Source: a virus (Duplodnaviria; Caudoviricetes). Taken from it: a DNA stretch of 64,000 bases. This document shows positions 6,101-58,616 of this stretch, one piece after another. The notes beneath the pieces were generated by a model that searched no databases, was not told the origin of the DNA, and was given only the letters and a program-made list of their open reading frames with translations. The first letter of the stretch is position 1. Every line of letters starts with the position of its first letter. Made by a program: the position numbers and the translations under genes. The stretch spans positions 15,564-79,563 of the IMG/VR virus record IMGVR_UViG_3300025600_000004; one strand, given 5' to 3'.

Positions 6101-7840
6101 TATGATCAAACACCAGATACTTTGAAAACTGAGGCATCAAGGGCAAGCATTCAGTCTGACAAAGATTATAGAGAGTCACTAAGAAACTACAAACCAACAT
6201 CGGTCACCGAAGAAATCAATGCTAATGCACAGAAAATCACTGACTTAGGACTCAAGAAAGCACAGATAGCAATGTCAAACATTGATTATGATACTACGAA
6301 TTCTGGGGCAACAGTGAACCCCGACGATCCTGCAAAGCCCAAAGCAGAACCAGGACTAGGAGCCAAGGACACCGCAGAATCAACAGCGGAGAAACTTGAG
6401 CTACACACTGAAAAGCGCAAGCTCGCTGAAATTCTGCATAATGCAAAGTTGGCAGACAATGTATTCTCAGAACTCATGGACAACATCAAGTCTTACGAAG
6501 AAATCCATGGTGAAGACTCGTACAGCATCTTAGAATACATGAGAACAAGGGCAGACAAAGTTAAACTCCTTAAACTTCAGAATGAAACCCTAGAGAATGA
6601 CATCGGTGGACTCGATGTTCTCATTGACGCATACATCGCCACCAATGCTGAACTTAGTGGTAAACTGGCTGGCAAGGATGCCAAAGGTAACACATTGGGA
6701 TACGGTGATATGACTAAGAATCAAAAGACTTATCAACGCACCATCAATGCTGACTTAGTATCCAATGACAGTAATCTTAGTGCATACACTGGGCTCCGTG
6801 ATAAGGCAGAGGAGAAGCAAGGCTCCAACAATGTAGAAATTACCAAGCTAAACAATGATAATGACAGGATTGCCATAGGTGACACTCAGAATCGTTCGAA
6901 GGTTCATAGTAGAAACCTAGATGCCATAAATCTACAAAGCGATTCTAAGGATGCCAATGATTTCAGTAATGATCCCTTGGTTGCTAAAGAAGCTGCACTG
7001 AGAAAATTCAGAGTTACAGCCACAGAGAACTATAGATATCTAGGTGAACTTGAAAGTAACCTTCGGAAAGCTAAGTTGATAGAGGTTAACGAGGAAGATG
7101 CATTGCTAAGGGCAGCAGCTATGGAGCAGGTTAGGATCGCACAGGAAGCCTACGACAAACAGCGACTCATCATCGACAAAGCATACAAAGAGCAAGCCAA
7201 TGCAGCCCGTGCTAAAGACATGGCAATCAGAGAATCCTGGTATTCCGTAGCTGACGATATGATTGTCAAAGGAAACACACTCCGTAGCATCGTTGATGGA
7301 TTATGGAAAGGCTTGGCATCCGATGCGCTCAAAGCCATTACTGGAGTGTCTAAGAAAGGCGAAGAAGGAACAATGTTCCAAACCCTGCAGAGGCTTATGC
7401 ATCCCAAGTCTGACAACGGAACCCAGGGTCGCGGTGGTAACATTCCCGTCAGCATCGGACGCTGGGAATTACCTCAAACTGGGACTAACTCAGACTGGCA
7501 GGGCATCTCAGATAAGTACTCTGTCAAACCTAAGACTAACTACTTCGGACTCGCAAGCCAGCTAGGGATATTCAAAGGGACTAACGTAGTGGCATCAGTA
7601 TCTCCTCGCACTACTGCGACTGCCAATGCCATCGCGGGTAAAGGCAGTAATTATGCAGGTCAACTTAGTCAGATGCAGACACAACTTGGACAGGTAGTGC
7701 AGGTCTTGACATACATGGCAAATAACAATGCTGCCAAGTCAGCCACTGGAACCAACGTGGCAGTGCTGCAACAAGGACAGTCTAATGAATCCTTTGCTAA
7801 CCAGCTTAACATAGTGAAATCCTTGGGACTGCTTGGATAA
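3152..7840 (+). CDS. Tape measure protein
   Basis: 1562 aa, Ala/Gln-rich helical, PhageMin_Tail-like segment (QEYGESVNGVIEAGKLWGRAY), central hydrophobic stretch, canonical position. Confidence 0.93.
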   Translation: MAGDGIIRTSIVVDNTSVKSMMQSIKELKAAVADLKAQGKGSATMFNGELAGVKELQGVIKQLQADMKALRNNASPGKSNVTKGVNDAVDETSAKLKTLQAKVREAMVAADKAWQSGSGFKTAKDSFGNALNQLTAFKRDLGTLSIGQEKSLYSNLRRGLDEGSASAKVLTERIKELNAETARNKAIDSPKVAKVESINSSQITDGIKQAKQNILAIDRQIFEQLQKNNGAETQRTAELRRQKAELESQVNALKTPKTVPSYQGYTQQISAAKAKTEELYQVMLRTNNAQSKLDFATARTGLMSTIKESNAFNASLGIGIDRAGGLGSLMQKLRSHTNWIIAGGMISAAVGIPMAYISTLKEIEVGMAGISQVLPAVHGNQVALNQVSREFVGIAQEYGESVNGVIEAGKLWGRAYKDIPTLMAFTSASAKLAVADNFGLAESNKALEATLAQYEWRAKSAAEATAYSMRVVDTWTAVAHNAQVSAQDLAMANERTAGVARMVGVEFEFLQAMVAAGVKNTGRSGQEIGNTLKTVFGSIHSDKAVGEIEAIGVAMKTTAADGTQKWRKVQDVIVDLAIATRATTKDVEGLFKAAAGGKFQWAKFSSMLDYDELIKVYAIAVNSAGTTEKQIAMQMDTISRKVEQLKATMVGLTTNSGGTLAKFIKDAIDNFSRFINILNNVSTTTYTVASKMLGAALVVAAGVKVWQQLGIVLGIYRGALLASSVATNVNTASQALNTGAQISGAMAQGAKTGASVANTVATNVNTAAQVRNAIATTIATGGLNLIIPVLAASAIALMGYSAVTGDATNSTDKLGRSLDDLGKMQEETGIKENLIQSLKQRYDYVDTLTNAHDKLTIALSKESEGSKEYNKLQKSLGATQEQLANIVGVTTGEIVQDGVLRMDLINQEKTNMETKAEGIKKEISNLKVAQIKYTEQSIQSAQDRIDALGTETKAWGLLAQAQMWAMEQYAGVMDLQIAAKQFIYDQTPDTLKTEASRASIQSDKDYRESLRNYKPTSVTEEINANAQKITDLGLKKAQIAMSNIDYDTTNSGATVNPDDPAKPKAEPGLGAKDTAESTAEKLELHTEKRKLAEILHNAKLADNVFSELMDNIKSYEEIHGEDSYSILEYMRTRADKVKLLKLQNETLENDIGGLDVLIDAYIATNAELSGKLAGKDAKGNTLGYGDMTKNQKTYQRTINADLVSNDSNLSAYTGLRDKAEEKQGSNNVEITKLNNDNDRIAIGDTQNRSKVHSRNLDAINLQSDSKDANDFSNDPLVAKEAALRKFRVTATENYRYLGELESNLRKAKLIEVNEEDALLRAAAMEQVRIAQEAYDKQRLIIDKAYKEQANAARAKDMAIRESWYSVADDMIVKGNTLRSIVDGLWKGLASDALKAITGVSKKGEEGTMFQTLQRLMHPKSDNGTQGRGGNIPVSIGRWELPQTGTNSDWQGISDKYSVKPKTNYFGLASQLGIFKGTNVVASVSPRTTATANAIAGKGSNYAGQLSQMQTQLGQVVQVLTYMANNNAAKSATGTNVAVLQQGQSNESFANQLNIVKSLGLLG

Positions 7841-13798: not shown

Positions 13799-14536
13799 CT
13801 ATTGATTTGTATATTTAGATATTGCATCTTTCCAAAAGTTATACCCTTTATCGTTTAAATGTACACCATCATTGGTTAAGTTAATATTTAATTGATCTTG
13901 ATAGGACATAAGTGAATAAAGGTCGATATATGATAGATTATATTTTTCAGATAACAGATGTATTTCTTTATTGCAAATTATAACCTTTTCATTATTTGTA
14001 AGATTTTTATTAGCGTTATATATAATTCCGTTGATTGGCAAAATACTTTGGACAAATATCTTAGTATTTGGCAACTCTTTCGTAATCTTTCCCAATATTT
14101 TATCATAATTAGATATAATTTCTTGAATAGCTACACCATTGCTAATATCATTAATTCCTATCATTAAAAAAACCTTGTTAGGATTTGATTTTATTACATT
14201 ATCCAATCTGTTCAATACGCCATAAGTTGTATCTGAACTTATTCCGCGATTTTTGATATTTTGGTTTTGCAGTAGCTCACTCCACTCGCATCCATCTGTA
14301 ATGCTATCTCCTAAAAAAATAGTGGCATTATCCGATATTGGAAGACTTTTAAACAAATCTGTTCTGTTTTTATAGTAAGGATCACTGGTAATAGGCTGAC
14401 TTTCTGACGCTCCCACCGTTGTGGTTATCCGATTTATAATATATGTTATACCACCCTTTCTGCAGACAACAACACAAGCCATTGATAAAAATACAATATT
14501 AAAAACAATCGATAATATTAAGATTTTCTTGTTCAA
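13799..14536 (-). CDS. Membrane-anchored SGNH/GDSL esterase (moron); start TTG 14536
   Basis: Blocks FLGDSITDG, GISSDTT, MIGIND, DGVHLN; N-terminal TM; visibly AT-rich; GAGGTG RBS. Confidence 0.88.
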   Translation of the reverse strand: MNKKILILSIVFNIVFLSMACVVVCRKGGITYIINRITTTVGASESQPITSDPYYKNRTDLFKSLPISDNATIFLGDSITDGCEWSELLQNQNIKNRGISSDTTYGVLNRLDNVIKSNPNKVFLMIGINDISNGVAIQEIISNYDKILGKITKELPNTKIFVQSILPINGIIYNANKNLTNNEKVIICNKEIHLLSEKYNLSYIDLYSLMSYQDQLNINLTNDGVHLNDKGYNFWKDAISKYTNQ

Positions 14537-14604
14537 ACTAACCACCTCAATATCATTATATCCTATCACTTGTGCAAATATTGTCATATTTAAGGAGGCT
14601 CCCC

Positions 14605-14859
14605 ATGATCCCACAGCTAATCCAAGCCCTTCCCCTGATACTCTCAGACTCCCAAGATCCCAAGGACATCTCAGAAACCAGAGTCATCGCAGCGTTGTTT
14701 GCGGTGGCTCTCTTAGTTTCCCTGCCCATCGTATTCCTATGGCTTCCACAGTACATCACTGAATTCAAAGGATACTGGAGCGATGCGTTGTTATTCCTCG
14801 GCTCTCTCTTAGGAGCCAATGTCATCAAGAAGTTTACACCGATAAAACAAGGAGGTTAA
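14605..14859 (+). CDS. Holin (two TM helices)
   Basis: AGGAGG RBS then ATG 14605; two hydrophobic segments and basic C-terminus; upstream of endolysin. Confidence 0.7.
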   Translation: MIPQLIQALPLILSDSQDPKDISETRVIAALFAVALLVSLPIVFLWLPQYITEFKGYWSDALLFLGSLLGANVIKKFTPIKQGG

Positions 14860-14861
14860 CT

Positions 14862-15170
14862 ATGGAATCACTGACACACTTAGAACAGCGTGTAGAAAGA
14901 CTAGAGGATTCAATGAAATCCCTAGCCTCCCTCCCAGCACAATTCGAGATACTCATAGGATTACAAAGGGAAGCCAATGCAGACTCCAAAGAATTAACCA
15001 AGCACATCACAGAAACCTACGCATCCAAGGAACTCTGTGCTGAGAGACATAAGAATATCAATGATGATGCACAGGATAACAAAGACTTCCGCAAGTGGGT
15101 CTATGGTTCCTTGGTAGTCGGTGCTGGCACTGTAATCATGGAATTAACAAAGTATATAGGAGGTAAATAA
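14862..15170 (+). CDS. Holin-like/XhlA-like membrane protein
   Basis: N-terminal coiled coil (LEQRVERLE), C-terminal TM; immediately before amidase. Confidence 0.55.
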   Translation: MESLTHLEQRVERLEDSMKSLASLPAQFEILIGLQREANADSKELTKHITETYASKELCAERHKNINDDAQDNKDFRKWVYGSLVVGAGTVIMELTKYIGGK

Positions 15171-15171
15171 G

Positions 15172-15693
15172 ATGAACAAAGTAACCTTAGTAGGTCTACA
15201 GACCCTCGCAGAGTCCGCCAAAGGTTCCATTGACCGCATATATCTCCATTGGTCTGCAGGGCATTATACTCAGTACTTCGATGACTACCATATCAACATC
15301 AATGGTGACGGTGAAATCTATGCCAGCACCGATGATCTCACAGAGCACAAGTCTCACACATGGCACAGGAATTCCAGAGCCATCGGTGTCAGCCTTTGCT
15401 GTTGTTGCAATGCTACATCGGATGACTTAGGTTCCGAGCCACCTACGACTGCACAGATTGAATCCATGGCACAAGTCATCGCAGTACTGTGTAAATACCT
15501 CGAATTGCCCTGTGACTATTCCGTAGTACGCACCCATGGAGAACAAGGAGACGAAGAAGATCCAGGGTATGGTCAAAGCACCACATGTGAACGATGGGAC
15601 TTGGCATTGCTGAGGAACGGAGACGCATGGGGCAGCGGTGGCAATACACTGAGAGGCAAAGGTAACTACTACATTGCCCAGGGAAGTTTATGA
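15172..15693 (+). CDS. Endolysin, N-acetylmuramoyl-L-alanine amidase (Amidase_2-like)
   Basis: IYLHWSAG, YHININGDG, HTWHRNSRAIGVSLC, VRTH zinc-amidase motifs. Confidence 0.88.
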   Translation: MNKVTLVGLQTLAESAKGSIDRIYLHWSAGHYTQYFDDYHININGDGEIYASTDDLTEHKSHTWHRNSRAIGVSLCCCCNATSDDLGSEPPTTAQIESMAQVIAVLCKYLELPCDYSVVRTHGEQGDEEDPGYGQSTTCERWDLALLRNGDAWGSGGNTLRGKGNYYIAQGSL

Positions 15694-15932: not shown

Positions 15933-16496
15933 ATGACATCATTAGGAATTATAAAGGATTACTGGAAATACCTAGTAATCTTCGTACTCGGAGTTGCCCT
16001 TGGATGCTGGGTGACCTATCAATGGTTTCCGAGGGAAGTCACAGTTGCCCCAGTATCCGAAGTATCAGCCAATGTTGAACTCAAGGATCACACAGAAGTC
16101 AGCTATGTGCCCAAAGTTAACAACGAATCCACAGATGTCGAAGTGAACAAAGCGTTGCCTGTGGTGACAGTGAAGGTCAATGGAGTGACTACGGCAATGC
16201 CACTGATTCAAGGTGAGACTCAGAAATTTGACAAAGGCAAGATCATAGTGGATCAGAGTACTTCATTGAAAGTCGATGTGACTGCCCAGGTTCAGTCTCA
16301 GATTGAACAGGGTATTGCCGATGCTTTTGCTAAGGAGTCTAAGAAATCCAAGGTTAAGCTGGGAGTCGAAGGTTCATTGGATAGCAATGTCAAAACCGAT
16401 GCACAACTGAGGCTGTCTCGGCAATCTGAGAAATTCGACATTGACATCAGAGTAAATCAAAAGAAACAAAGTATCAGTGGAACATTGTGGTTCTAA
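15933..16496 (+). CDS. Putative spanin-like outer-membrane disruption protein
   Basis: Last gene of lysis cassette; N-terminal TM, beta-rich body, C-terminal ...SISGTLWF. Confidence 0.5.
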   Translation: MTSLGIIKDYWKYLVIFVLGVALGCWVTYQWFPREVTVAPVSEVSANVELKDHTEVSYVPKVNNESTDVEVNKALPVVTVKVNGVTTAMPLIQGETQKFDKGKIIVDQSTSLKVDVTAQVQSQIEQGIADAFAKESKKSKVKLGVEGSLDSNVKTDAQLRLSRQSEKFDIDIRVNQKKQSISGTLWF

Positions 16497-16863: not shown

Positions 16864-17006
16864 GGAGGAACAGTGATGTTCGAAGAATACAAAGCTGAAT
16901 ACCGAATCAACAAAGCATCCATCGATACCAAGGCTCTATGGAATACTATGCTTGCAGTGACATTCATCACAGTACTGGTGTTGCTATGAAGAACGGAGGA
17001 ACAACA

Positions 17007-17360
17007 ATGAAACCACAGATAGGACAAAGGGTATTCTTGAAACCAGTGGGCGACGCAGCTCGCAGAGGCAACACTGTCATCAAGGAATACATCGTATCAA
17101 AGGTAGGCAGGAAATACTTTGAAGCATGGGACGGGTCATGGAAATACTCTGCCATAAAGTTTCACATTGAAGGACTTAGGCAAGTCACAGATTACTCAGT
17201 AGACTATGAATTATACTTTGATATGCAGGAAATCATTGATGAACGAGAATGCGAGGTGCTCATTGATGATCTCAGGAAAGTCATCGGAAACTATGGGCCA
17301 CCAAAGTTATCCTTAGATCAACTACGTCGTATCAATGCAATCATCAAGGAGGGGTTATGA
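17007..17360 (+). CDS. Hypothetical early protein (IGQRVFL...KVGRKYF beta-barrel type)
   Basis: GGAGG RBS before ATG 17007. Confidence 0.6.
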   Translation: MKPQIGQRVFLKPVGDAARRGNTVIKEYIVSKVGRKYFEAWDGSWKYSAIKFHIEGLRQVTDYSVDYELYFDMQEIIDERECEVLIDDLRKVIGNYGPPKLSLDQLRRINAIIKEGL

Positions 17361-18108: not shown

Positions 18109-21100
18109 ATGGACAATTATGATACTTACGTACCACCACATTTACATCTTGATTACAGTAACAATGGCATGAAGGATTCAGTGAATACCATAGATAACGT
18201 TGTGAAGAGACTCAAGGAAATCGGAGCTACTGCGTGTGCGGTGACAGACCATGGAACTACATCGGGCATCGTAGAAGCATACAAGAAGTTCAAGAAGGCA
18301 GGGATTAAGCTGATTCCAGGGTACGAAGGATATCTCACTGGAGACCTGTCGATACAGCAAAGAGACCTAAGCCATATAACACTGTGGGCAAAGGATTCTC
18401 AGGGGCTTCGTAACCTCTATGAAATATCTACGATTGCCAATGGGGACAAAGGTCGTTCACCGAATAACTATTACTACAAACCGAGGGTGGACTTAGAATT
18501 ACTGAGACGATTCTCTGCTGGCATCATGGCTGGATCTGCGTGCCTTGGTGGATGCTTGGTTACTGAGGATTACGGTGTGAACGAAGATAAACTTCAGCAA
18601 CTTATTGACATCTACGGAGCTGATGATGTATTCCTTGAAATCCATACATACCAATGTCCTGAGCAATTCAAGTACAACCATGCACTCGTCAAAGCATCCA
18701 AGAAATTCAATGTGAGACTCATAGTTGCTACGGATGCCCACTTCGCGTGGAAGTACAGTGCTGAACTCAGAAAACACTTCAAGAATACATCGAAGACTCA
18801 GGAAGGCGATGAGAATATTGACGATACATTGTATATTCAAGATGTCGATGAAATACGCAGTAACCTGAGATACCTAGATGGACTCGTAATCAATGAAGCC
18901 ATTGCCAATACCCATGTACTCGCAGAGAAATCCAATGTAGAAATAGCATTCAACGGTAAGCACTATCCAGAGTATAAGTGTGAAAATCCATTGACAGAGG
19001 TGAGACTCCAAGCAATCGCAGGGTGGAATAGGTTAGTCAAAGGCACTGGCGTAGATTACGATGCATACGCAGAGAGAGTCAAGTTTGAACTGAACATCCT
19101 CGATAAGCAAGACTACTGTAGTTACTTCTTGATCAATAGTGGACTCATTAAGAAATTCATTGCAGCAGGGATTCCAGTGGGTGACGGTAGAGGATCAGTG
19201 GTGGCATCGATGGTGGCTTGGTTGCTAGGGATTACAAAATTAGATCCATATAAATACAATTTAGTCTTCGAAAGGTTTGCTCACATGGAAAGGCTTAGTC
19301 CACCCGACGTGGATACTGATATTTCTAAGAAACACAGACATCAATGCTTAGAAATTATCAAAGAAGAATACGGTGAGACGTACCAGTGTAGAACCTTCGC
19401 CCGCTATGGTGCATCAGGGAGCATTAGGCAAGCAGGGAAGGCATTGTTCTATCCATTGGATGTCGTGGATGCCTTAGCAAAATCATTGTCTAAGTATGAA
19501 TCCGATGATGAAGACGATGAAACTTCCACGTATGATCAGAAGATATGGATGTTAGACAATGTTAAAACCGATGACAACGCAGACCTCATAGAACTAGCAA
19601 AGCAATTCGTAGGCATCTGCTTTGGATATGGCAAACACGCCTCAGCGATCATCGTACTGACAGAGGATGTTCTACAGTTTTGTTCCGTAGAGCGTCAGAA
19701 GGACAGTAAAACAGGGGATATCAATTACATCCTCGCATGTGACTTTAAACTCCTTGAGGAAATGGGACTGATGAAACTTGATATGCTTGGACTTAAGACC
19801 CTCGATGTTATCCAAGATACATTAGATATGCTCAGTGTTCCCATTGACATTGAAACTATTCCATTGGATGACGAAGCTACTTCTCAGATGTTATGCGAAG
19901 GCAAAACCAAAGGCTGTTTCCAAATATCTTCACCTGGCATGACACAGTTAGTTAAAGGAATTCAGCCTAAGAACTTTGCTGACATGATACCTTTGGTTAG
20001 TCTGTACAGACCAGGGCCACTCGATGCCATCGTAGAAGAAACAGGGGACACAATGGTTGACACCTATGTAAAAGTCAAGAATGGCGAGATAGAAGCCACG
20101 TATCTCCATGAAAAACTGCGACCTATCCTTAGTGACACCTACGGGATTATCTTATATCAAGAGCAAATCTTAGAAATAATCAAGGAACTATGTGGGTACT
20201 CATTGGGCGAGGCTGACATGTTTCGCAGAATTATTGGCAAGAAAAAAGTCGATGAAATGAAACCTGCGATTGAAGCGATGATTGAACGTGGAGTTATCCA
20301 AGGCATCCCTAGACCAACTATGGAATCCATCGCAGATCGCATTGTAACCTTTGCTATGTATGGATTCAACAAGTGCTTATCAGGGGATGAGAGGCTTCAT
20401 AGACCTGCCAATGGTAAATTTATGCCAACACTGAGTGAAATGTGGATGATCAAGAATAGCCTCGCATACGCCAAAGAAACCAAGCACAAAGAACTCTATG
20501 ATAAATACAATGCGTATGGCTATGGGACAACGTTGTCTATGTTTGACGATGGCAATATCAAGAAAAATACTATAGTTGACATTGTACCCTCTGGAACCGC
20601 AGCCATCTATAGACTCACTACGAAGACAGGGAAGATCGTAGACTGCACAATGAATCATAAGCTCCCTACACCACAAGGTGGCAAGATACTCTATGATCTC
20701 AAAGTAGGCAGCGAAGTTTATGTCATTGGCGACTATGAAATTACATCGACCATCTATAATTTCTACAATGGTAACCCTCCAGAATCCAACGTACCCAAAG
20801 CAGGACAACAGGGCTTCCAGCGTAATCCATATGGAGCATCGACACTCTTTGATACAGCAAGGGAATTCTTCAGTAACATCCACGCTGCCTGTGAAGACTG
20901 CGGAACCTATGATGCTAAGAAATACGAATTGCACCATGTTAACATGAATCGCCAGGATAATTCCAATGAGAATCTAAGGTGGCTATGTGTATCGTGTCAT
21001 CGGAAAGCTCATTATGCCATGGGCAGAACTAAGGTGGGAACAAGGGGCTCATCGGCTGCCATAGATACCATCGCAAGCATAGAATATCTAAAAACCACAG

Positions 21101-22065
21101 AAGTCTTTGATGTGACAATGGAGGCTCCAGCACATAACTTCGTTAACCTAGGTGGCGTAGTAGTCTCAAATTCTCATAGTGCTGCCTATGGAAAGCTGGC
21201 GTACAAGACCTCGTATCTCAAGGCTCATTATCCTCTGCAATATATGTGTGCATGTATCAACAATGAAGAAGGTAAGCAAGACAAGATACTCCCGTTCATC
21301 AAGGAGTGCGGGAAGCTGGAGATTACAGTGTTGCCCCCTGACATCACATTGAAGAATCGCCAATGGATTATACAGGGAGATTCACTGGTGATGGGGCTTC
21401 ACTATATCAAAGGTGTCGGCAATAATCTCAGGTTGGACAATATAAATTCCTATGATGACATTGTACGCTATAATGCTAAGGATGTAACTACAGCACTTAT
21501 CAAGTCTGGAGCAATGGATAGCTATGGTGATCGTGGAGTCCTACTGGATAGCTTAGAATCACTACAGGATACAATGAAACGCATCGACAACTGCATGGCG
21601 AAGGTCAAAGAGAACTCAGAATCCCTAGCACTCGCAGTATCTGACAAAGACATCAAGAAGTATGCTCGGCAGAAGGGACAATGGGAAGCCAAGTTGTCCG
21701 AAGCCAAAGCAAAGGAAGCTCAAGTATCATCCACTGAATTCTATGATAAAGTCATAGGAGAAATCGAGGTCTTAGGTTACAGCGAAGGTGTATCTCCGAC
21801 AATTAAAGTAGGTAAGGTAGTCGGTGTATTCTCTAAGGTGATAGGCAATGGTTCAACTATGGGTTGGGTCACGCTAAAGTCTCCTCATGGTGAGTTTCGA
21901 TGTGCGTGTTTCTCAGATATGTGGGATATCATCAAAGACTTAGTAGTCGTAGGGTCAACATACAAATTCGTCGTTAAATCCAATGATCGCGGTGACAACT
22001 TAGAAGAGATATCGATTAACGGAGTAACCCATAGAAAGCCTCAGAAGCAATGGGCGAAACGATGA
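18109..22065 (+). CDS. dnaE: DNA polymerase III alpha subunit (family C) with intein
   Basis: PHP motifs (HLHLDYS, AVTDHG), GRGSVVAS, PPDVDTD, KLDMLGLKTL, YGIILYQEQ, YGFNK/SHSAAY. Confidence 0.95.
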   Translation: MDNYDTYVPPHLHLDYSNNGMKDSVNTIDNVVKRLKEIGATACAVTDHGTTSGIVEAYKKFKKAGIKLIPGYEGYLTGDLSIQQRDLSHITLWAKDSQGLRNLYEISTIANGDKGRSPNNYYYKPRVDLELLRRFSAGIMAGSACLGGCLVTEDYGVNEDKLQQLIDIYGADDVFLEIHTYQCPEQFKYNHALVKASKKFNVRLIVATDAHFAWKYSAELRKHFKNTSKTQEGDENIDDTLYIQDVDEIRSNLRYLDGLVINEAIANTHVLAEKSNVEIAFNGKHYPEYKCENPLTEVRLQAIAGWNRLVKGTGVDYDAYAERVKFELNILDKQDYCSYFLINSGLIKKFIAAGIPVGDGRGSVVASMVAWLLGITKLDPYKYNLVFERFAHMERLSPPDVDTDISKKHRHQCLEIIKEEYGETYQCRTFARYGASGSIRQAGKALFYPLDVVDALAKSLSKYESDDEDDETSTYDQKIWMLDNVKTDDNADLIELAKQFVGICFGYGKHASAIIVLTEDVLQFCSVERQKDSKTGDINYILACDFKLLEEMGLMKLDMLGLKTLDVIQDTLDMLSVPIDIETIPLDDEATSQMLCEGKTKGCFQISSPGMTQLVKGIQPKNFADMIPLVSLYRPGPLDAIVEETGDTMVDTYVKVKNGEIEATYLHEKLRPILSDTYGIILYQEQILEIIKELCGYSLGEADMFRRIIGKKKVDEMKPAIEAMIERGVIQGIPRPTMESIADRIVTFAMYGFNKCLSGDERLHRPANGKFMPTLSEMWMIKNSLAYAKETKHKELYDKYNAYGYGTTLSMFDDGNIKKNTIVDIVPSGTAAIYRLTTKTGKIVDCTMNHKLPTPQGGKILYDLKVGSEVYVIGDYEITSTIYNFYNGNPPESNVPKAGQQGFQRNPYGASTLFDTAREFFSNIHAACEDCGTYDAKKYELHHVNMNRQDNSNENLRWLCVSCHRKAHYAMGRTKVGTRGSSAAIDTIASIEYLKTTEVFDVTMEAPAHNFVNLGGVVVSNSHSAAYGKLAYKTSYLKAHYPLQYMCACINNEEGKQDKILPFIKECGKLEITVLPPDITLKNRQWIIQGDSLVMGLHYIKGVGNNLRLDNINSYDDIVRYNAKDVTTALIKSGAMDSYGDRGVLLDSLESLQDTMKRIDNCMAKVKENSESLALAVSDKDIKKYARQKGQWEAKLSEAKAKEAQVSSTEFYDKVIGEIEVLGYSEGVSPTIKVGKVVGVFSKVIGNGSTMGWVTLKSPHGEFRCACFSDMWDIIKDLVVVGSTYKFVVKSNDRGDNLEEISINGVTHRKPQKQWAKR
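20374..21171 (+). mobile_element. Intein (266 aa) with HNH homing endonuclease, inserted in YGFNK|SHSAAY
   Basis: Starts C(LSGDE), ends ...HNFVNLGGVVVSN before Ser+1; internal CEDC...ELHHVNMNRQDNSNENLRWLCVSCH. Confidence 0.92.
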
Positions 22066-23461: not shown

Positions 23462-24595
23462 TTATTCCTTAGAAAGTCCCAGTAATTTACCCATGATTGC
23501 TGCTGCTGTTTTGTCCTGCTCAGGTACGCTGTGAACATAGAGTTGCAGGGTAATTCCCACAGAGGAATGCCCTAGTCTCTCACTGACCATCTTGATATTA
23601 CATCCCTCGGCAATCAGTTGAGTAGCATGGGTATGTCTAAGATCATGAAAGCGAACTCCCTTGATTCCAGAGAGTGCCAGGACTTCGCGATAGAGAGCTG
23701 AGGCATTCGTAGTTAACAACGGCTTCCCAGTGGCATTGTGGAACACCAATGGATTCCCTAGGTTAATACTCTGCAACTCCTCCAGCACCTTAGCATCCAC
23801 AGATATCGTACGTATCGAAGAATTAGACTTAGGAGATTCCAATGATCCTTCCTTAGATAGACTGCGGATGACTTTGACATTATCGAGTCCTACGCAATCC
23901 CACTGTAGTCCCAGCAACTCCCCAAGTCTCATCCCAGTGGCGAGGGCAAGGAGAATAAGGTAATACGCAGCCCTCAGCATCTCCCTACGAGAACTTAGGC
24001 ATCCACGAGCTGCCTCAAGCAACGTTGTTATCTGTGTCTGACTGAGTATATGCATTGTCTTCATTGGGCGCTTCAGCGGGTTACTACGACTTGCAGGGTT
24101 GATTCCAATGATTCCTTCGTCCACAGCGAGGTTCAACATATTATGTATAGCCTCTCTATGCTTCCCTAGACTAGTCGGTGAAAGTCCATAGGCAACCTTG
24201 ACATTAAAGTAATCATTGATGATGCCAGTGGTTAGCTTTTGAACCTTGTATTTACCTAGTGTCGGCTCAATGTGCTTAGTGCAGACATGGACATAACAAA
24301 GGTACGTAGACTCCCTAAGTTGCGTCTTCTTGCTCTCTAGCCATCTTTGGATGTACTGAGTTACCGTGTAGCTATTGCCTGGTTTCAGTAATCCTTTGCC
24401 ATTTTGCTTCTTGAGTTCATCCAGTGCCTTCACTGCATTCTTCTGTCCTTCTACGGTAACTGACTTTCTCCTCTGTTCTCCACCGATGCCATCTATGGTG
24501 ATTTGAACTTTGTATTTACCTTTGGATATTTCTAGAATGCTGCCATCGCCCTTGGGTCTCCGAGGTTTAGGCTTAGGTTTTTCCTTATCTTCCAT
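23462..24595 (-). CDS. int: Tyrosine integrase with N-terminal arm-binding domain
   Basis: RRPKGDGSI, ATGMRLGELLGL, RFHDLRHTHAT, ERLGHSSVGITLQLY; ATG 24595 has RBS. Confidence 0.95.
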   Translation of the reverse strand: MEDKEKPKPKPRRPKGDGSILEISKGKYKVQITIDGIGGEQRRKSVTVEGQKNAVKALDELKKQNGKGLLKPGNSYTVTQYIQRWLESKKTQLRESTYLCYVHVCTKHIEPTLGKYKVQKLTTGIINDYFNVKVAYGLSPTSLGKHREAIHNMLNLAVDEGIIGINPASRSNPLKRPMKTMHILSQTQITTLLEAARGCLSSRREMLRAAYYLILLALATGMRLGELLGLQWDCVGLDNVKVIRSLSKEGSLESPKSNSSIRTISVDAKVLEELQSINLGNPLVFHNATGKPLLTTNASALYREVLALSGIKGVRFHDLRHTHATQLIAEGCNIKMVSERLGHSSVGITLQLYVHSVPEQDKTAAAIMGKLLGLSKE

Positions 24596-24671
24596 AACTT
24601 CCCTCCATTCGACATTAAACACTCTTGTGGTACTTTAGTCCCGATGATATACTATGTGTATATACAGTAAT

Positions 24672-24685
24672 AGAACAAACGTTTG
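24672..24685 (+). promoter_or_regulatory. Firmicutes-type LexA (SOS/Cheo) box
   Basis: AGAACAAACGTTTG fits GAAC-N4-GTTY; downstream of TTGTGG-17-TATACT promoter (24625-24653). Confidence 0.6.
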
Positions 24686-24703
24686 CATAAGGAGTCGATG
24701 TAA

Positions 24704-24937
24704 ATGACACTGAAAACTATAGGCACTACGCAATACATAACTTACATATTTGATACTGTGAAAAAATGGAGCTGGACAAAGGGGATGTACTTTGTTCACC
24801 CTTCGGCAGAACAGGAATTCATCGCATACATTAGACACAATGAATCACTTCAACAGCTCCGCGAGCTCCGAGATATCCTTAGCTTCTTTATCAGTGGGCT
24901 TACCTTTGCCTCTAGTGAATATCTCCGTATCATCTAA
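24704..24937 (+). CDS. Hypothetical protein, candidate SOS-induced antirepressor
   Basis: AAGGAG RBS, own promoter and SOS box; 3' end overlaps convergent XRE gene. Confidence 0.4.
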   Translation: MTLKTIGTTQYITYIFDTVKKWSWTKGMYFVHPSAEQEFIAYIRHNESLQQLRELRDILSFFISGLTFASSEYLRII

Positions 24938-25162
24938 TAGAAACACATCGATCTCGTCGTCATCAAAGAAGAAGTATCCTTTGGGCAACTCTGCGATGGC
25001 GATGAGTTCCTTTGTTTTATCCCAGCCAAGCTTCTTAGATTCATCCTTGCAGTTTTCGATGTTGGCGATGTTACGCTCTGTAGTATCTAATGCTGCAGCG
25101 AGTTCTATCCTTGAATACCCTAGTTTATTCCTAGCGTACCGAACTCTTTCCCCGTATATCAT
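24845..25162 (-). CDS. Second XRE-family HTH regulator
   Basis: YGERVRYARNKLGYSRIELAAALDTTERNIANIEN; GAGGTG RBS. Confidence 0.85.
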   Translation of the reverse strand: MIYGERVRYARNKLGYSRIELAAALDTTERNIANIENCKDESKKLGWDKTKELIAIAELPKGYFFFDDDEIDVFLLDDTEIFTRGKGKPTDKEAKDISELAELLK

Positions 25163-25326: not shown

Positions 25327-25653
25327 ATGCAAAGCGAGGAACGTACATTGAAAACATCATACAGCGAAGACCCACAGAGGATAAGCTTAGGACAACTCCA
25401 GGATTCCTACTATGAAGCACAGCATTCCGAAGAAAGCATCTTAGGTTCCGCGAAAGCCCATCGTAACCGACACATAGCAAGGGCAAACTCAGCATTCGAA
25501 GTATTGCTGAGGAATCACCCAGAAGGCGAAGTGTTGCTGAGGATGCTGTGGGATGAACTAAGTGATGCAGAGGATATCATAGTAGATGCAACGGTTGAAC
25601 ATTGTTTCGTAGAATGTCAAAAGAAACTTATTGACACAGTGGTTGCGAGGTGA
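25327..25653 (+). CDS. Hypothetical protein
   Basis: ORF divergent from XRE gene. Confidence 0.45.
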   Translation: MQSEERTLKTSYSEDPQRISLGQLQDSYYEAQHSEESILGSAKAHRNRHIARANSAFEVLLRNHPEGEVLLRMLWDELSDAEDIIVDATVEHCFVECQKKLIDTVVAR

Positions 25654-25659
25654 TATAGT
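25621..25659 (+). promoter_or_regulatory. sigma70-type promoter
   Basis: AAGAAACTTA-TTGACA-17-TATAGT. Confidence 0.75.
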
Positions 25660-25665
25660 AAGTAC

Positions 25666-25765
25666 ATAAGAGTTAATCGCAATTAACGATTGCTCGTAGA
25701 AGGACGGTGAGCAACAATGAGATCAAGGGACAGGCCGTAGGAAGTAGCTTGGAATACTTCCTTGA
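25666..25765 (+). ncRNA. Candidate small RNA between tandem promoters
   Basis: No credible ORF; three hairpins GTTAAT/ATTAAC, TTGCTC/GAGCAA, GGAAGTA/TACTTCC. Confidence 0.4.
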
Positions 25766-25773
25766 AATATCCA

Positions 25774-25812
25774 AAGAAACATATTGACATAATGAATTGA
25801 CTATGGTACACT
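25774..25812 (+). promoter_or_regulatory. sigma70-type promoter
   Basis: AAGAAACATA-TTGACA-17-TACACT. Confidence 0.7.
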
Positions 25813-26605: not shown

Positions 26606-27220
26606 ATGACAACAATGACCAACCAAGAATTAGCCACAGAGTTCCGCAGACTGGCTAAGGAAACCCTGGCATCCTTAGAAACCATAAAGAGTGGCAATAG
26701 ACTCCTTAGCACAATGATAACAGCTAAGGCGCACGATGAACACATGGAGCAACTGAAAGCTATGAATACAGTGATGTCTCAGCAACTCGAATCTATCAAA
26801 GCAATGGTCAATGGCACAACTATGCCCACCTTGTTTCCTAGAGTTTCCGAGATCACTCAGACTTACATCAAAGAACTCCAGGCATCCAATGACATCATGC
26901 AGACACAGTTAGAAACCATATCATCACCAGAACTACGCAAGATATGGAGCGATGCACATTCTAAGATGGCCGAAGAATACAAGTATAAACTTGCAGTACT
27001 TCTGAGTCAACCTATTTACGAAGTACACCTTGATGTCAATGCTCCAGAGTTTCCAAAGAATACGAAGGATACCATGGCATTCTATGAAGCCATGATGAAA
27101 ATCCCTGAGCATCAACGGACATCCGAAGAAATCGGTGAATCACTAAGGAGAATACTTAGTAGCATCAACGAAACGGAGGAATTACAATGTATTTCACAGC
27201 CAAACACCAAGAACTCATAG
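26606..27220 (+). CDS. Hypothetical helical protein with in-frame 28-bp motif
   Basis: AGGAGG RBS; MPTLFPRVS from motif at 26821. Confidence 0.55.
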   Translation: MTTMTNQELATEFRRLAKETLASLETIKSGNRLLSTMITAKAHDEHMEQLKAMNTVMSQQLESIKAMVNGTTMPTLFPRVSEITQTYIKELQASNDIMQTQLETISSPELRKIWSDAHSKMAEEYKYKLAVLLSQPIYEVHLDVNAPEFPKNTKDTMAFYEAMMKIPEHQRTSEEIGESLRRILSSINETEELQCISQPNTKNS

Positions 27221-27606
27221 ACCAACTACAGGAACTATGTCCCATCGCATTTCCTAAGAAGCCCAGTCCTAAGGTCGCACTGGCACACGGGCAACACATC
27301 GACATCCAACGAATCCTAAGCATCGACAAGGCAACTTCGATAGCACTGTTGAACTTCTGGTGCAAGGGACATCGGTATGACCTCGCATGTTCCATAGAAG
27401 GTGTCCTTCGGCTGAGGTACGATGGCAGCGTAGGAGGCAAGGTGAGTCTAAGGGAATCGCAGATACATAAGAGGAAGCTGGATGGGTACTATGAGACGAG
27501 GGTGGCTCCGAAGGGTTACAAGGTTACACCAAGGGAGCCGAAGTCATTCTTTGCTACAGCTAAGGAAATGCTAAGGTCACTATGGCGCAAGGAGGTAGCT
27601 CAGTAA
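27187..27606 (+). CDS. ProQ/FinO-domain RNA-binding protein
   Basis: By-eye alignment to E. coli ProQ N-domain: L..LCP.AF, LAHGQHIDI, FWCKGHRY, GVLRLRYDG..GGKVS. Confidence 0.7.
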   Translation: MYFTAKHQELIDQLQELCPIAFPKKPSPKVALAHGQHIDIQRILSIDKATSIALLNFWCKGHRYDLACSIEGVLRLRYDGSVGGKVSLRESQIHKRKLDGYYETRVAPKGYKVTPREPKSFFATAKEMLRSLWRKEVAQ

Positions 27607-27751
27607 TGTACATAGTAATCGATGAACACAGAGCATGGTTTACACTGACGGACAAAGACAGGCTAAGGGATATCTGTGACAACATGGCAAAGCTAGGAAC
27701 ATCCTTTGAAGTGTTCAAAGCTGAATCAGTGAATTATAAGGAGGAATCACA

Positions 27752-28420
27752 ATGAATAACTTAGTCACAATGACAAACGGCACAGCCACAGTAACATCTC
27801 GGCAGGTCGCGGAGAACTTTGGGAAGGAACATAGTAAGGTCAAGGCATCCATAGAAAATATCATGGAAGAATTAGGTAGCGCGGAAATCGGCGACACCTC
27901 AATGTTCACAGTGGGATGCTATGTAGATCAGTGGAATCGCAATCAGGCAGAGTTTACAATGAATCGCGATGGCTGGACTTTGCTGACTATGGGATTTACT
28001 GGTTCCAAAGCCCTTCAATGGAAGCTCAAGTACATCGCAGCATTCAATGATATGGAGAAGCAACTTAGTACCCATGCAATTCCACAGACTCGCGCAGAGG
28101 CTCTGAGACTTGCTGCGGATGCGATGGAACAACTTGATTCAGCCAAGACTCTCATAGAAATCATGGAGCCCAAAGCTAAAGCCTTCGACATATTCATTGA
28201 CTGCCAAGGTTACTACTCAGTTGGCACAGCAGCCAAGATGTTGAACACTGGTCGCAATAGACTCTTCGCATTCATGGCAATTCATAAAATCATCATGGAT
28301 AGCAATGTTCCCTATCAATGCTATGTAGACAGAGGGTACTTTGCGGTCAAAGGTCATAATGGAATCACCTATGTATCTCCCAAGGGTCTCCAATGGTTGT
28401 CGGAGAAACTCTTAGCTTAA
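27752..28420 (+). CDS. Rha-family regulator with C-terminal ANT/KilAC antirepressor domain
   Basis: VTSRQVAENFGKEH, MNRDGWTLLTMGFTGSKALQWKLKYIAAFNDME, TAAKMLNTGRNRLF. Confidence 0.9.
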   Translation: MNNLVTMTNGTATVTSRQVAENFGKEHSKVKASIENIMEELGSAEIGDTSMFTVGCYVDQWNRNQAEFTMNRDGWTLLTMGFTGSKALQWKLKYIAAFNDMEKQLSTHAIPQTRAEALRLAADAMEQLDSAKTLIEIMEPKAKAFDIFIDCQGYYSVGTAAKMLNTGRNRLFAFMAIHKIIMDSNVPYQCYVDRGYFAVKGHNGITYVSPKGLQWLSEKLLA

Positions 28421-34059: not shown

Positions 34060-34962
34060 ATGAAACTCATAGCAATCAAAACTAAGGATTCGGTGTATAT
34101 CTCAGATAACATTGACAACTCAGGCTACTACAGTTCAGCCCTCGGAAATCTATTGTTCGACGGTGTAAAACCTGAGACAACCTATAATAGAACATGGTTC
34201 AAGCTCCCTGGCATTCCTAAGACCATCCAAAAGTTAAACAAGGGTGGCAGAGTAAACCGCAGATTCACATTGAAGGATGGGTTTCCTGAGACTGCGAAGA
34301 CTCCTCAGTTAATCACATGGCAACAGTGGAATGCAGAGGATGATGATGGTGACTATACGCTATTCACTGATGTCCGAGGGTTGTACGAAGAGCAGTACGA
34401 GATGTCTGAGGATGAACTGGTTGACGTAGAATTCTCACTGAACATCATTGAAGAACTCGAAGAATTTACTATGACCGCAACGAAATATGTGATGACCTAC
34501 AATTTCATAGATATGCTCAATACAAATCCTGTGTTATTGCCATTGAAGCCATGTAGTCTCGATGCTCAACAAAGTTATAACATTATCAGAGCCTATGTTA
34601 AAACTCACATTGACCCAAGGTGGGCAAAGATTACCAGTGATTATGACTTCTGCTTTACTGTGAAGAAAGTCATAGCACTCACTGAGGCCGAGGAATATGC
34701 AGTGGATATCAATAATTTAGGATTTGGTAAAAAGAGGAAGCCCAAGTATGAAACTAGGTATCGTAAAACCAGGGAAACCGAGGTATACGAAGTTGCTCCT
34801 AAGTCATATCAAAGCTATTCCATAGTTCAACCCTTCGCTGGCAAGGATTACGAAGCATTGCAAAGTAACATCCAAGCATTCCTAGAAGACCTTATGAAAA
34901 CCATCAATGCTCCTTTGATTGACTGCCCACATTGCAATGGATCAGGGATTGTACAATGCTAA
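34060..34962 (+). CDS. Conserved phage hypothetical protein with terminal CPHCNGSG
   Basis: 300 aa ORF with GGAGG RBS. Confidence 0.65.
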   Translation: MKLIAIKTKDSVYISDNIDNSGYYSSALGNLLFDGVKPETTYNRTWFKLPGIPKTIQKLNKGGRVNRRFTLKDGFPETAKTPQLITWQQWNAEDDDGDYTLFTDVRGLYEEQYEMSEDELVDVEFSLNIIEELEEFTMTATKYVMTYNFIDMLNTNPVLLPLKPCSLDAQQSYNIIRAYVKTHIDPRWAKITSDYDFCFTVKKVIALTEAEEYAVDINNLGFGKKRKPKYETRYRKTRETEVYEVAPKSYQSYSIVQPFAGKDYEALQSNIQAFLEDLMKTINAPLIDCPHCNGSGIVQC

Positions 34963-57632: not shown

Positions 57633-57691
57633 GTTATCACCTCCTTTCGTTCGAAGGAAACTTTGGGAAACATAGTTTACATAGTTGTACC

Positions 57692-58204
57692 CTAGTCAAG
57701 CCTTATAATTCCTTTGCTGGTCACTGTATAGCCATCGAATCCGAGGTCTCTTCCTAGTCTTTCAAAGTCAATATAGTTTGCCAATGTACCCATAGCACTA
57801 GTATCTCCCCATAGACCTTCATCGAACATCTCTTGTGCTAGGTCTTCCAATGAATCACATTGATAGAATTGGTATGACTGAGATTCTAAGATTTCCATTG
57901 CCTGTTCAAATGTTCCACCATTGGCTTCTAGGATTGAACTAAGTATGTCCTGCTCACTGGTGTCTAAGTTGTCATATGATTCTGCTATGGTATTCAATGA
58001 ATCAATCGAAGTATATTCGCCGATTTCTAAGCCTTCAATGTCTGTCTCATGATCACTATTGAAATATTCTTCGTATTCTTCATTGATACCTATGGAGTCG
58101 AGGCATTCTTTGATTTCTTCCTCTGTTGCTGGGAGGGTTAACCATGCATATACTAAGTTGCCTTCATTGTATTTTCCTAGGTTTGTTACTGCGAGTTTAA
58201 TCAT
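57692..58204 (-). CDS. ardA: ArdA anti-restriction (DNA mimic) protein
   Basis: VTNLGKYNEGNL..AWLTLP, EEYF..D.E, YIDFERLGRDL; very acidic. Confidence 0.9.
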   Translation of the reverse strand: MIKLAVTNLGKYNEGNLVYAWLTLPATEEEIKECLDSIGINEEYEEYFNSDHETDIEGLEIGEYTSIDSLNTIAESYDNLDTSEQDILSSILEANGGTFEQAMEILESQSYQFYQCDSLEDLAQEMFDEGLWGDTSAMGTLANYIDFERLGRDLGFDGYTVTSKGIIRLD

Positions 58205-58616
58205 TGTATTTCCTCCTTGTGCCTGAGACCCTTTGTTCTCCACGGCATAACCATTGATTCAGTGAATGTTGCTAAACATGAACAGTGAGCTTCAGAGAAC
58301 TACCAGCCTCTACGAAATATACAGTCCAGCCATTGTTTAAATTCTCTGTTCTTACCTTTGAATCTCCTAGTCTTCAGTGTCAGCATAGTATTTCCAAGTA
58401 CTCACAGTACTCCGCAGAATGCTGAGTGTACAACTTAGTTTCCTTCATTGGTTCATAGTTACCCTCTGCATGACATTGTATCAACAGTTCTATGTCTGCG
58501 AGGTTTGCCTTTGGGATTCGTCGGTGGGACATGATGTTCTTAAGTTGCTTGGCTGTCATTGGAAGACCTCCTTTGTGTTCGTGGAAACTTTGAGAAACAG
58601 GGTGGACATAGTTATC

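What the first reader, a model, noticed from the sequence alone, without database searches (positions are those of the whole stretch)
27187..27606. ProQ/FinO-domain RNA chaperone in an apparently Firmicutes phage
Seen: QELIDQLQELCPIAF / LAHGQHIDI / LLNFWCKGHRY / GVLRLRYDGSVGGKVS align by eye with ProQ KEVIAFLAERFPHCF / LKIGIFQDL / LRLYTSSWRY / GATRVDLDGNPCGEL. Established: FinO-domain proteins bind structured sRNAs and terminators and are known mainly from Proteobacteria and their plasmids. Inference: the phage brings an RNA chaperone into a host lineage thought to lack it, possibly acting with the sRNA at 25666 or on the repeated leader element.
Basis: partly seen in the sequence, partly recalled or inferred. 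Interest (0 to 1): 0.72.

Follow-up and report, generated by a model that had tools for sequence, protein, structure and literature searches.

The report
FinO-domain RNA-binding gene in peat phage
[quoted passage not shown] The phage most likely infects a two-membraned Firmicute (Negativicutes), so the family would reach beyond the Proteobacteria where it has been described, but the host is inferred rather than shown.

Summary
ORF 27187-27606 (+, 139 aa) passes Pfam's ProQ/FinO cut-off. It folds with pLDDT 96 and matches only FinO-domain structures (RocC Z 13.4, next unrelated fold Z 3.1). The 3'-nucleotide pocket residues are kept (Tyr64, Arg75, Gly35). The hairpin-contacting Arg (ProQ R58, RocC R75) is Ile52.

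The gene sits in the early rightward operon beside the integrase and repressor. The closest related phage has an ortholog at 53% identity in the same place.

The host claim is only partly supported. Integrase, ArdA, antirepressor, terminase, Shine-Dalgarno sites and lysis-cassette position look Firmicutes-like. The tail tip and endolysin match only phages of two-membraned hosts. The nearest named NrdD is from a Negativicute, and Sporomusa silvacetica already carries an annotated ProQ/FinO protein. A Negativicutes-type host fits best (about 55%), but no direct host link was obtainable.

The proposed RNA partners are not supported. The 25667 region folds no better than shuffles, and the leader repeat is unstructured.

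Verdict: a new, divergent member of a known family, of moderate interest. First readers flagged similar genes in two other "Firmicute-type" phages in this scan; those notes are unchecked.

The parts
27187..27606 (+). Gene for a 139-aa minimal FinO/ProQ-domain protein (P0001). The FinO domain spans about residues 4-103. After it come a short linker and a basic C-terminal helix (residues 121-138). pI 9.7.
27175..27179 (+). GGAGG Shine-Dalgarno site 7 nt upstream of the ATG. The N-terminus (M1, F3, T4, H7) is invariant in the four closest homologues, which supports this start.
26606..27220 (+). Upstream 204-aa ORF of no known family. Its end overlaps the FinO gene start by 34 nt, so both lie in one operon. 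It contains an in-frame copy of the leader repeat at 26833-26848.
27606..27755 (+). Downstream 49-aa ORF. Its ATG overlaps the FinO stop codon (TAATG at 27604-27608), with AAGGAGG 10 nt upstream. This suggests translational coupling. Its stop in turn overlaps the antirepressor start.
   Evidence: (sequence read directly)
27752..28420 (+). Rha / KilAC antirepressor gene, two genes downstream of the FinO gene.
25784..25812 (+). Promoter-like site: TTGACA, 17 nt, TACACT, with a TG extended -10. It is the likely early rightward promoter feeding the operon that holds the FinO gene. A second site lies at 25631-25659 (11 of 12 matches).
   Evidence: These are consensus matches only, and the total count in the region equals the shuffled expectation.
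24845..25162 (-). HTH (XRE-type) repressor of the lysogeny module, divergent from the early operon.
   Evidence: 45% identical ortholog in G001
23462..24622 (-). Tyrosine integrase. It marks the phage as temperate.

Best explanation
The ORF encodes a minimal, stand-alone FinO-domain RNA-binding protein of a temperate siphovirus. It is made early, from the rightward operon that starts at the lysogeny switch. By analogy with RocC, FinO, NMB1681 and the ProQ NTD, it most likely clamps the 3'-OH end of structured transcripts, such as terminator-type hairpins with a short 3' tail. The clamp would be a pocket built from Tyr64, Arg75 and the Gly35 turn. Binding would shield these RNAs from 3' exonucleases or hold them ready for pairing, and so tune early phage (or host) gene expression after infection or induction. 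What is shown: family membership, predicted fold, pocket residues, gene position and operon context, and conservation in one diverged relative. What is inferred: RNA binding itself, the ligands and the regulatory outcome. The host is most likely a diderm member of the Bacillota (Negativicutes, Sporomusaceae-like), which is also an inference.
For: Family and fold. Residues: ProQ Y70/R80/R69/G37/K54 correspond to Y64/R75/R63/G35/K48. Across 55 relatives Y is kept in 54, R75 in 51, G80 in 54 and G84 in 51. RocC Y87 and R97, the equivalents, form the 3'-nucleotide pocket, and R97M costs more than 200-fold in binding (PMC9674577). The protein is basic, pI 9.7, net charge about +10. Expression context: it has its own GGAGG SD, overlaps both neighbouring ORFs, and lies downstream of strong promoter-like sites next to the repressor and integrase. 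Selection: the closest related phage G001 (TerL 76%) keeps an ortholog at 53% identity in the same place, while the small genes around it differ. Host: nearest relatives are Bacillota for the integrase, ArdA, antirepressor, TerL and the PF24203 protein. GGAGG SDs are frequent. [quoted passage not shown] The tail tip and endolysin are of diderm type. The nearest named NrdD is from Anaeroselena agilis. A FinO protein exists in Sporomusa silvacetica. In the tree the phage clade (99/87) lies outside the proteobacterial plasmid clade (100/98) and outside classical ProQ, in the same weakly supported assemblage as the Sporomusa protein.
Against: There is no RNA or binding data of any kind. The Arg that contacts hairpin phosphates (RocC R75, ProQ R58; R75D costs more than 100-fold) is Ile52 here. 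It is variable in the subfamily (I, N, R, R, D, E ...). ProQ K35, R32 and R62 are Ala, Val and Asn, so hairpin recognition may differ or be weak. No convincing terminator or sRNA candidate was found nearby: terminator-like sites occur at chance level, there are no Rfam hits, and 25667-25800 is not unusually structured. NCBIfam ProQ and FinO models do not hit the protein. Host: there is no prophage, CRISPR or attB link. P0001 is no closer to the Sporomusa protein than to Burkholderiales plasmid FinO proteins (52.8 against 52.8-53.1 bits). All named phage FinO-fold proteins in BFVD are from phages of Proteobacteria.
Confidence: 0.6

Rival explanations
1. It is a dedicated cofactor of one phage-encoded antisense or small RNA, in the manner of FinO/FinP-traJ, FopA/Inc or RocC/RocR. 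It would stabilise that RNA to set the lysis-lysogeny decision or antirepressor level, rather than bind many 3' ends.
For: Members of the family on mobile elements are typically specialists with one or two ligands (PMC9977716; PMC9674577). The gene lies next to the switch and two genes upstream of an antirepressor. The intergenic region between repressor and early operon is long, about 750 bp, and holds two strong promoter-like sites.
Against: No candidate RNA stands out: no Rfam hit, the 25667-25800 fold is not above shuffles, and terminator-like sites occur at chance level. The intergenic DNA is not conserved in G001, and there the antirepressor lies 6 kb from the FinO gene.
Confidence: 0.15
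2. It is a host-takeover or counter-defence factor. It would sequester or destabilise host regulatory or defence-associated RNAs early in infection.
For: It is an early gene in a phage that carries other anti-defence genes: Gad1 and ArdA. FinO domains read RNA shape rather than sequence, so host RNAs are possible ligands.
Against: This rests on circumstance only. No anti-defence model matches it. PADLOC was not searched, and PHROGs gives only phrog_21591 of unknown function. It is not adjacent to Gad1 or ArdA.
Confidence: 0.1
3. The host is a proteobacterium or another ordinary Gram-negative. The gene is then simply one more phage-borne FinO/ProQ-like protein of the kind already known.
For: The tail-tip protein matches 1759 phage records, and the listed genera are all Proteobacteria. 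Endolysin relatives come only from cyanophages and alphaproteobacterial phages. The tail module is of the GTA/phiJL001 type. The nearest plasmid FinO proteins are from Burkholderiales and Pseudomonas. Atlas neighbours are mostly Pseudomonadota. BFVD FinO-fold hits are all from phages of Proteobacteria.
Against: Integrase, ArdA, antirepressor, TerL and the PF24203 protein all have their best matches in Bacillota elements, although the plasmid and phage collections are dominated by Proteobacteria. The lysis cassette is in the Firmicutes position. GGAGG SDs are pervasive. A relative uses a large serine recombinase. The FinO clade lies outside the well-supported proteobacterial plasmid clade.
Confidence: 0.2
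4. The fold is kept but canonical RNA-hairpin binding is lost. The protein would act on another ligand, such as ssDNA or a protein partner like the coupled 49-aa product.
For: Four of the basic residues important in ProQ (R32, K35, R58, R62) are not basic here. The gene is translationally coupled to a tiny ORF. A gp2.5-type SSB and recombination genes lie close downstream.
Against: The most diagnostic pocket residues (Tyr, Arg, Gly) are intact. The protein stays strongly basic. Some clade members keep the R58-equivalent Arg.
Confidence: 0.05

Closest known systems
Minimal ProQ of Neisseria meningitidis (NMB1681, PDB 3mw6) and the FinO domain of Legionella RocC (PDB 7rgs, 7rgt, 7rgu)
   Same: A stand-alone FinO domain with short extensions. 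The predicted fold superposes at Z 12.4-13.4, rmsd 1.8-2.7 A over 96-99 residues. The pocket Tyr, Arg and Gly are conserved.
   Different: Sequence identity is only 15-21%. The N-cap Arg (RocC R75) is Ile. The gene is phage-borne in an early operon rather than chromosomal. The likely host is outside the Proteobacteria. It has an extra C-terminal basic helix (residues 121-138).
FinO (F-like plasmids, PDB 1dvo) and FopA (pCol1B9): FinO-domain proteins of mobile elements that serve one antisense RNA
   Same: Encoded on a mobile element, small and basic, FinO fold (Z 10.0). Plausibly a regulator of the element's own gene expression.
   Different: It has no FinO_N extension. No partner antisense RNA was identified. 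It falls in a different clade.
E. coli / Salmonella ProQ (PF04352 NTD, linker, Tudor-like PF17516 CTD)
   Same: It matches the NTD: hhalign probability 99.4, 106 aligned columns.
   Different: It has no linker or Tudor CTD. BLAST does not detect E. coli ProQ. It lies in a different major branch of the tree.
Phage-encoded ProQ/FinO-domain proteins of phages of Proteobacteria (Aeromonas phage 4_4572, Sinorhizobium phage phiM9, Rhizobium phage RHph_N34, Salmonella phage 7-11, Escherichia phage SU7)
   Same: Phage-borne and FinO fold (Foldseek probability 1.0, TM up to 0.80).
   Different: Identity is 12-22%. tblastn of P0001 finds no match in 50,697 phage records. Those hosts are Proteobacteria, whereas this phage has a Bacillota-type backbone.
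ProQ/FinO family protein WP_094604961.1 of Sporomusa silvacetica DSM 10669 (Negativicutes)
   Same: A small (125 aa) stand-alone FinO-domain protein. It shares the LQExxPxAFPKKPxPKVPLA signature. It is 33% identical over 93 aa, E 1e-14, and falls in the same loose tree assemblage.
   Different: It is chromosomal (6.05-Mb contig) in an unknown context. It is not closer to P0001 than proteobacterial plasmid FinO proteins are. It forms a separate, well-supported clade.

Membership tests
FinO/ProQ domain family (Pfam PF04352) | Sequence matches the family HMM above the curated cut-off | tested here: met
   31.1 bits against a cut-off of 27. All 55 nearest relatives also match, best E 1.4e-32. hhalign against E. 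coli ProQ gives probability 99.4. NCBIfam ProQ and FinO models (full-length equivalogs) do not hit it.
FinO/ProQ domain family (Pfam PF04352) | The FinO fold: a helical core with a beta-hairpin | tested here: met
   The predicted model has pLDDT 96.4. VIA-align gives Z 13.4, 12.4, 10.0 and 9.2 to RocC, NMB1681, FinO and Lpp1663, and the next fold scores Z 3.1. Foldseek gives probability 1.0. This is a predicted structure, not a solved one.
FinO/ProQ domain family (Pfam PF04352) | 3'-nucleotide pocket: conserved Tyr (ProQ Y70, RocC Y87), Arg (R80, R97) and the beta-turn Gly (G37, G52) | tested here: met
   Y64, R75 and G35 align to these positions. Among 55 relatives Y is kept in 54 and R in 51. 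The roles of these residues come from PMC9674577.
FinO/ProQ domain family (Pfam PF04352) | Helix N-cap motif with a following Arg or Lys that contacts hairpin phosphates (RocS70...R75; ProQ S53...R58) | tested here: not met
   The N-cap position is Asp47, a residue that can cap a helix, and K48 is kept. The Arg position is Ile52, and it varies across the subfamily. The paper reports this Arg as about 80% conserved, so the feature is frequent rather than absolute.
FinO/ProQ domain family (Pfam PF04352) | Binds structured RNA, i.e. a terminator hairpin with a free 3'-OH tail | not testable with these tools
   This needs EMSA, FP or ITC, or RIP or CLIP.
Classical ProQ (global chaperone of gammaproteobacteria) | FinO NTD plus a long linker plus a Tudor-like C-terminal domain (PF17516) | tested here: not met
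   The protein has 139 aa and its only Pfam domain is PF04352. It lies in a different tree branch from E. coli ProQ. The separate PF24203 'ProQ C-like' ORF at 16938-17360 shows no similarity to the ProQ CTD by BLASTP and is absent from G001.
Phage of Bacillota (diderm class Negativicutes) | Lysis cassette directly after the tail genes and before the lysogeny module (marker proposed in bioRxiv 10.1101/606087) | tested here: met
   The order is TMP 3152-7840, tail tip to 13595, holin-like ORF and amidase 14862-15693, then integrase and repressor 23462-25162, with DnaE in between.
Phage of Bacillota (diderm class Negativicutes) | A direct host link: prophage copy, CRISPR spacer or attB in a named genome | tested here: inconclusive
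   Two genome-contig scans (integrase; NrdD profile) confirmed no relative. No GTDB handles could be obtained.

The most novel reading that the evidence does not exclude
This is a representative of a distinct clade of minimal FinO-domain proteins native to phages, and occasionally chromosomes, of diderm Firmicutes (Negativicutes). FinO-type 3'-end binders would then operate in an RNase J-containing, non-proteobacterial lineage, contrary to the current picture of a Proteobacteria-restricted family. They would also do so with an altered hairpin-contact surface (no N-cap Arg).
Probability: 0.4. Interest if true: 0.55.

Novelty: new member of a known kind. Interest (0 to 1): 0.4.

Why it matters
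Reviews describe FinO/ProQ proteins as confined to four classes of Proteobacteria and their plasmids and phages. It has been argued that such 3'-end protectors never took hold in Gram-positive lineages because RNase J degrades RNA from the 5' end (PMC9977716). A conserved FinO-domain gene in a phage lineage with a Firmicutes-type backbone, together with an annotated homologue in Sporomusa, would widen the family's range. It would also give a concrete system in which to test that argument. If the host turns out to be a proteobacterium, the gene is an ordinary, if divergent, phage FinO protein.

Tried and rejected
- **Shallow-alignment fold.** The first AlphaFold run, on a 5-sequence alignment, gave pLDDT 55 and was discarded.
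- **Direct sequence searches.** phmmer of P0001 alone against PDB found nothing, and tblastn of P0001 against 50,697 phages found nothing. A megablast of 25 kb of the window (23001-48000) against the phage collection, and tblastn of the major capsid and portal proteins, also found nothing.
- **Viral contigs.** A scan with the close-family profile A1 confirmed no relative.
- **Host routes that failed.**
  - Two genome-contig scans confirmed no relative.
  - The metagenome scan returned only three short contigs and not the 313.9-kb contig that holds an 88% NrdD.
  - The genome search draws no relatives for viruses, does not accept taxon names, and turned plasmid and E. coli loci into W handles, which have no relatives.
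  - The Atlas search on the tail-tip protein gave only viral clusters.
  - No tRNA or Rfam hit gives an att clue.
- **"Split ProQ" idea** (FinO ORF plus the PF24203 ORF at 16938). Rejected: the ORFs are 10 kb apart in different modules. PF24203 relatives are in Bacillus, Clostridium and Cellulophaga phages, whose hosts lack ProQ. It is absent from G001, which keeps FinO. It has no similarity to the ProQ CTD. Complex prediction was therefore not spent.
- **Leader repeat as FinO ligand.** Not supported.
- **sRNA at about 25667.** Fold not above shuffles.
- **Antisense RNA against the antirepressor** (P22 sar-like). Only weak consensus sites at chance frequency, and the linkage is not conserved in G001.

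Full report
**What the window is.** It is bases 15564-79563 of a 79,563-bp IMG/VR virus record with 99-bp direct terminal repeats, rated 100% complete. The only public run holding the DNA is a peat metagenome. Close relatives of its NrdD come from fermentation and JGI metagenomes. The genome is a temperate siphovirus, and the gene order runs as follows:
- TerL, portal and head genes;
- tape measure at 3152-7840;
- a lambda-J/GTA-like tail tip;
- a holin-like ORF and a single-domain Amidase_2 endolysin at 15172-15693;
- a DnaE polymerase with an intein;
- integrase at 23462-24622 (-) and an XRE repressor at 24845-25162 (-);
- a rightward early operon;
- gp2.5-type SSB, Gad1, ligase, primase-helicase, exonuclease and NrdD;
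- a leftward block that includes ArdA.

**The observation.** ORF 27187-27606 (+, 139 aa) is real and has a GGAGG SD 7 nt upstream. It passes Pfam's ProQ/FinO gathering score: 31.1 bits against 27, E 2.5e-7.

A word-index search found four relatives at 47-53% identity. A full HMMER scan of 1.8 billion representatives with their profile found 165 proteins at E<=1e-3, of which only 8 were at E<=1e-30. This is a small, purely metagenomic core clade nested in the wider family. All 55 nearest relatives carry PF04352. Their profile hits E. coli ProQ NTD at 2e-27, and also Lpp1663, RocC, NMB1681 and FinO.

With that alignment AlphaFold2 gives pLDDT 96.4. Foldseek returns only FinO-domain chains among significant hits. 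VIA-align gives Z 13.4 (1.8 A over 97 residues) to RocC, 12.4 to NMB1681, 10.0 to FinO and 9.2 to Lpp1663, followed by a drop to Z 3.1. Family membership is therefore secure.

**Residues.** hhalign against E. coli ProQ, read with the RocC-RNA structure paper (PMC9674577), maps the residues as follows.

| ProQ residue | This protein | Role or status |
|---|---|---|
| Y70 | Y64 | 3'-nucleotide pocket, kept |
| R80 | R75 | 3'-nucleotide pocket, kept |
| G37 | G35 | beta-turn, kept |
| R69 | R63 | kept |
| K54 | K48 | kept |
| S53 (N-cap) | D47 | a residue that can cap a helix |
| R58 (RocC R75) | I52 | hairpin-phosphate contact, lost |
| R32 | V30 | basic residue lost |
| K35 | A33 | basic residue lost |
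| R62 | N56 | basic residue lost |

RocC R75D costs more than 100-fold in binding. The Ile52 position is variable in the clade. The protein is strongly basic, pI 9.7. I infer that 3'-end capture is retained and that the hairpin-contact surface has diverged.

**Context and conservation.**
- The gene overlaps the upstream 204-aa ORF by 34 nt.
- Its stop is fused (TAATG) to the start of a 49-aa ORF, which in turn overlaps the Rha/KilAC antirepressor.
- Strong promoter-like sites with extended -10 elements lie at 25631-25659 and 25784-25812, beside the divergent repressor.
- Among three related phage records found through TerL, the closest one is G001, at 80.2 kb and 76% TerL identity. It has a FinO ortholog of 146 aa, 53% identical, at the same place relative to integrase and repressor, while the intervening small genes differ.
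- G002 (TerL 61%) and the partial G003 lack the gene.
- It is therefore a retained accessory gene of the early operon, not a core gene.

**Candidate RNA partners.**
- The transcript region 25667-25800 folds no better than shuffles (z -0.74).
- The leader repeat GTTKCC-N4-GTTKCC is real: 23 copies against 0.8 expected. As RNA it is less structured than shuffles.
- That repeat is absent from G001. G001 has an analogous element with the same TAACTATG head but a GACACA-N4-TGTGTC palindrome.
- Terminator-like sites near the gene are at chance frequency, and Rfam finds nothing.

**Host.** The evidence is indirect and mixed, but patterned.

Bacillota-like features:
- The integrase's nearest plasmid-borne relatives are from Bacillus, Clostridioides and Enterococcus, with some from Streptomyces.
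- ArdA's nearest relatives are from Clostridioides and Enterococcus; 140 of 162 records are Enterococcus.
- The antirepressor is closest to those of Clostridium phage c-st and Lacticaseibacillus phages.
- TerL is closest to Faecalibacterium Mushu and Bacillus BalMu-1.
- The PF24203 protein is closest to Bacillus Goe11 and Clostridium Maintenon.
- GGAGG SDs with 7-9 nt spacing are pervasive: 45% of naive ORF starts against 5.6% background.
- The lysis cassette lies between the tail and lysogeny modules. That position is reported as diagnostic for phages of Firmicutes, Negativicutes included (10.1101/606087).
- A relative uses a large serine recombinase.

Diderm-like features:
- The J-like tail tip matches 1759 phage records, and the listed genera are all Proteobacteria.
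- The tail module has a BR0599, gp84_N and NlpC/P60 composition.
- The single-domain amidase has cultured-phage relatives only among cyanophages and alphaproteobacterial phages.

Links to Negativicutes:
- The nearest named NrdD (49%) is from the Negativicute Anaeroselena agilis.
- A 90%-identity cluster among the profile hits (P0019, about rank 19 of the listed hits, E 1.3e-13) contains the "ProQ/FinO family protein" of Sporomusa silvacetica.

A diderm Firmicute reconciles all of this. My estimates:

| Host | Estimated probability |
|---|---|
| Negativicutes-type | about 55% |
| Monoderm Bacillota | about 10% |
| Proteobacteria | about 20% |
| Other | about 15% |

No direct link could be obtained.

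**Phylogeny.** An ML tree of 60 FinO domains (P0137 was left out as too divergent) gives three groupings:
- a well-supported core phage clade (99/87);
- a separate, strongly supported clade (100/98) holding the Burkholderiales and Pseudomonas plasmid proteins;
- a classical ProQ branch with E. coli.

The core clade and the Sporomusa clade fall in one weakly supported assemblage (91/74). By pairwise score, P0001 is equally distant from the Sporomusa protein and from the proteobacterial plasmid proteins. No donor can be named.

**Comparison with what is known.** Phage- and plasmid-borne FinO proteins are established (PMC9977716). BFVD shows FinO-fold proteins in Aeromonas, Rhizobium, Sinorhizobium, Salmonella and Escherichia phages. 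The family is described as restricted to alpha-, beta- and gammaproteobacteria and Acidithiobacillia, and as having failed to enter Gram-positives. No paper in the library links ProQ with Negativicutes. The gene is thus a new, divergent member of a known family. Its interest lies in the probable but unproven host lineage and in the altered hairpin-contact surface.

**Other notes in this scan.** First readers flagged FinO-like genes in two other "Firmicute-type" phages. These notes are unchecked.

Noticed in passing
window 16938-17360 (+): A 140-aa ORF matches Pfam PF24203 'Phage ProQ C-terminal-like domain' (56 bits) and phrog_3032. Its best cultured-phage relatives are Bacillus phage Goe11 (43%), Clostridium phage Maintenon and Cellulophaga phages. 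It is present only in this phage, not in G001-G003, and has no BLAST similarity to the E. coli ProQ CTD.
   Followed up: partly
window, 23 copies (e.g. 25879, 28434, 44468; minus strand at 57656, 58583, 59200); L013:738-13568: A leader element, TAACTATG-N8-GTTKCC-N4-GTTKCC-SD, recurs 23 times against 0.8 expected. It is co-oriented with transcription. The related phage G001 has the same TAACTATG head followed by a different core, the palindrome GACACA-N4-TGTGTC. One G001 copy lies directly upstream of its FinO gene. So the head is shared and the core is phage-specific, which looks like a specificity-swapped regulatory site.
   Followed up: partly
window 15933-16496 (+): The last gene of the lysis cassette encodes a 187-aa protein with an N-terminal transmembrane helix. 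Its C-terminus ends ...SGTLWF, reminiscent of an outer-membrane beta-signal. It matches phrog_37316 (unknown function). It may be a spanin-like or outer-membrane-disrupting factor, which would fit a diderm host.
   Followed up: no
window 18109-22065 (+): The DnaE-type Pol III alpha has an intein/HNH insertion and is 1318 aa long. The orthologs in G001 (1028 aa) and G002 (1034 aa) are shorter by about the size of that insert; G002's gave no intein/HNH Pfam hit, G001's was not scanned.
   Followed up: partly
window 34060-34962 (+) and 57692-58243 (-): There are two anti-defence genes: Gad1 (anti-Gabija, 345.6 bits) and ArdA (anti-restriction, 110 bits). The closest plasmid-borne ArdA relatives are almost all from Bacillota.
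   Followed up: partly
window 13799-14614 (-): A GDSL/SGNH hydrolase gene lies on the opposite strand between the tail-tip and lysis genes. It looks like a moron and may be a surface-glycan modifying enzyme.
   Followed up: no
L014:1-1446 and L015:10967-12064 (provirus G002): The related provirus G002 is bounded by a large serine recombinase at one end and a tyrosine integrase at the other. It lacks both the FinO gene and the PF24203 gene.
   Followed up: partly
window 61149-61733 (+): A second, short (194 aa) tyrosine-recombinase-family ORF lies far from the lysogeny module, upstream of the transporter/TGT-like pair.
   Followed up: no
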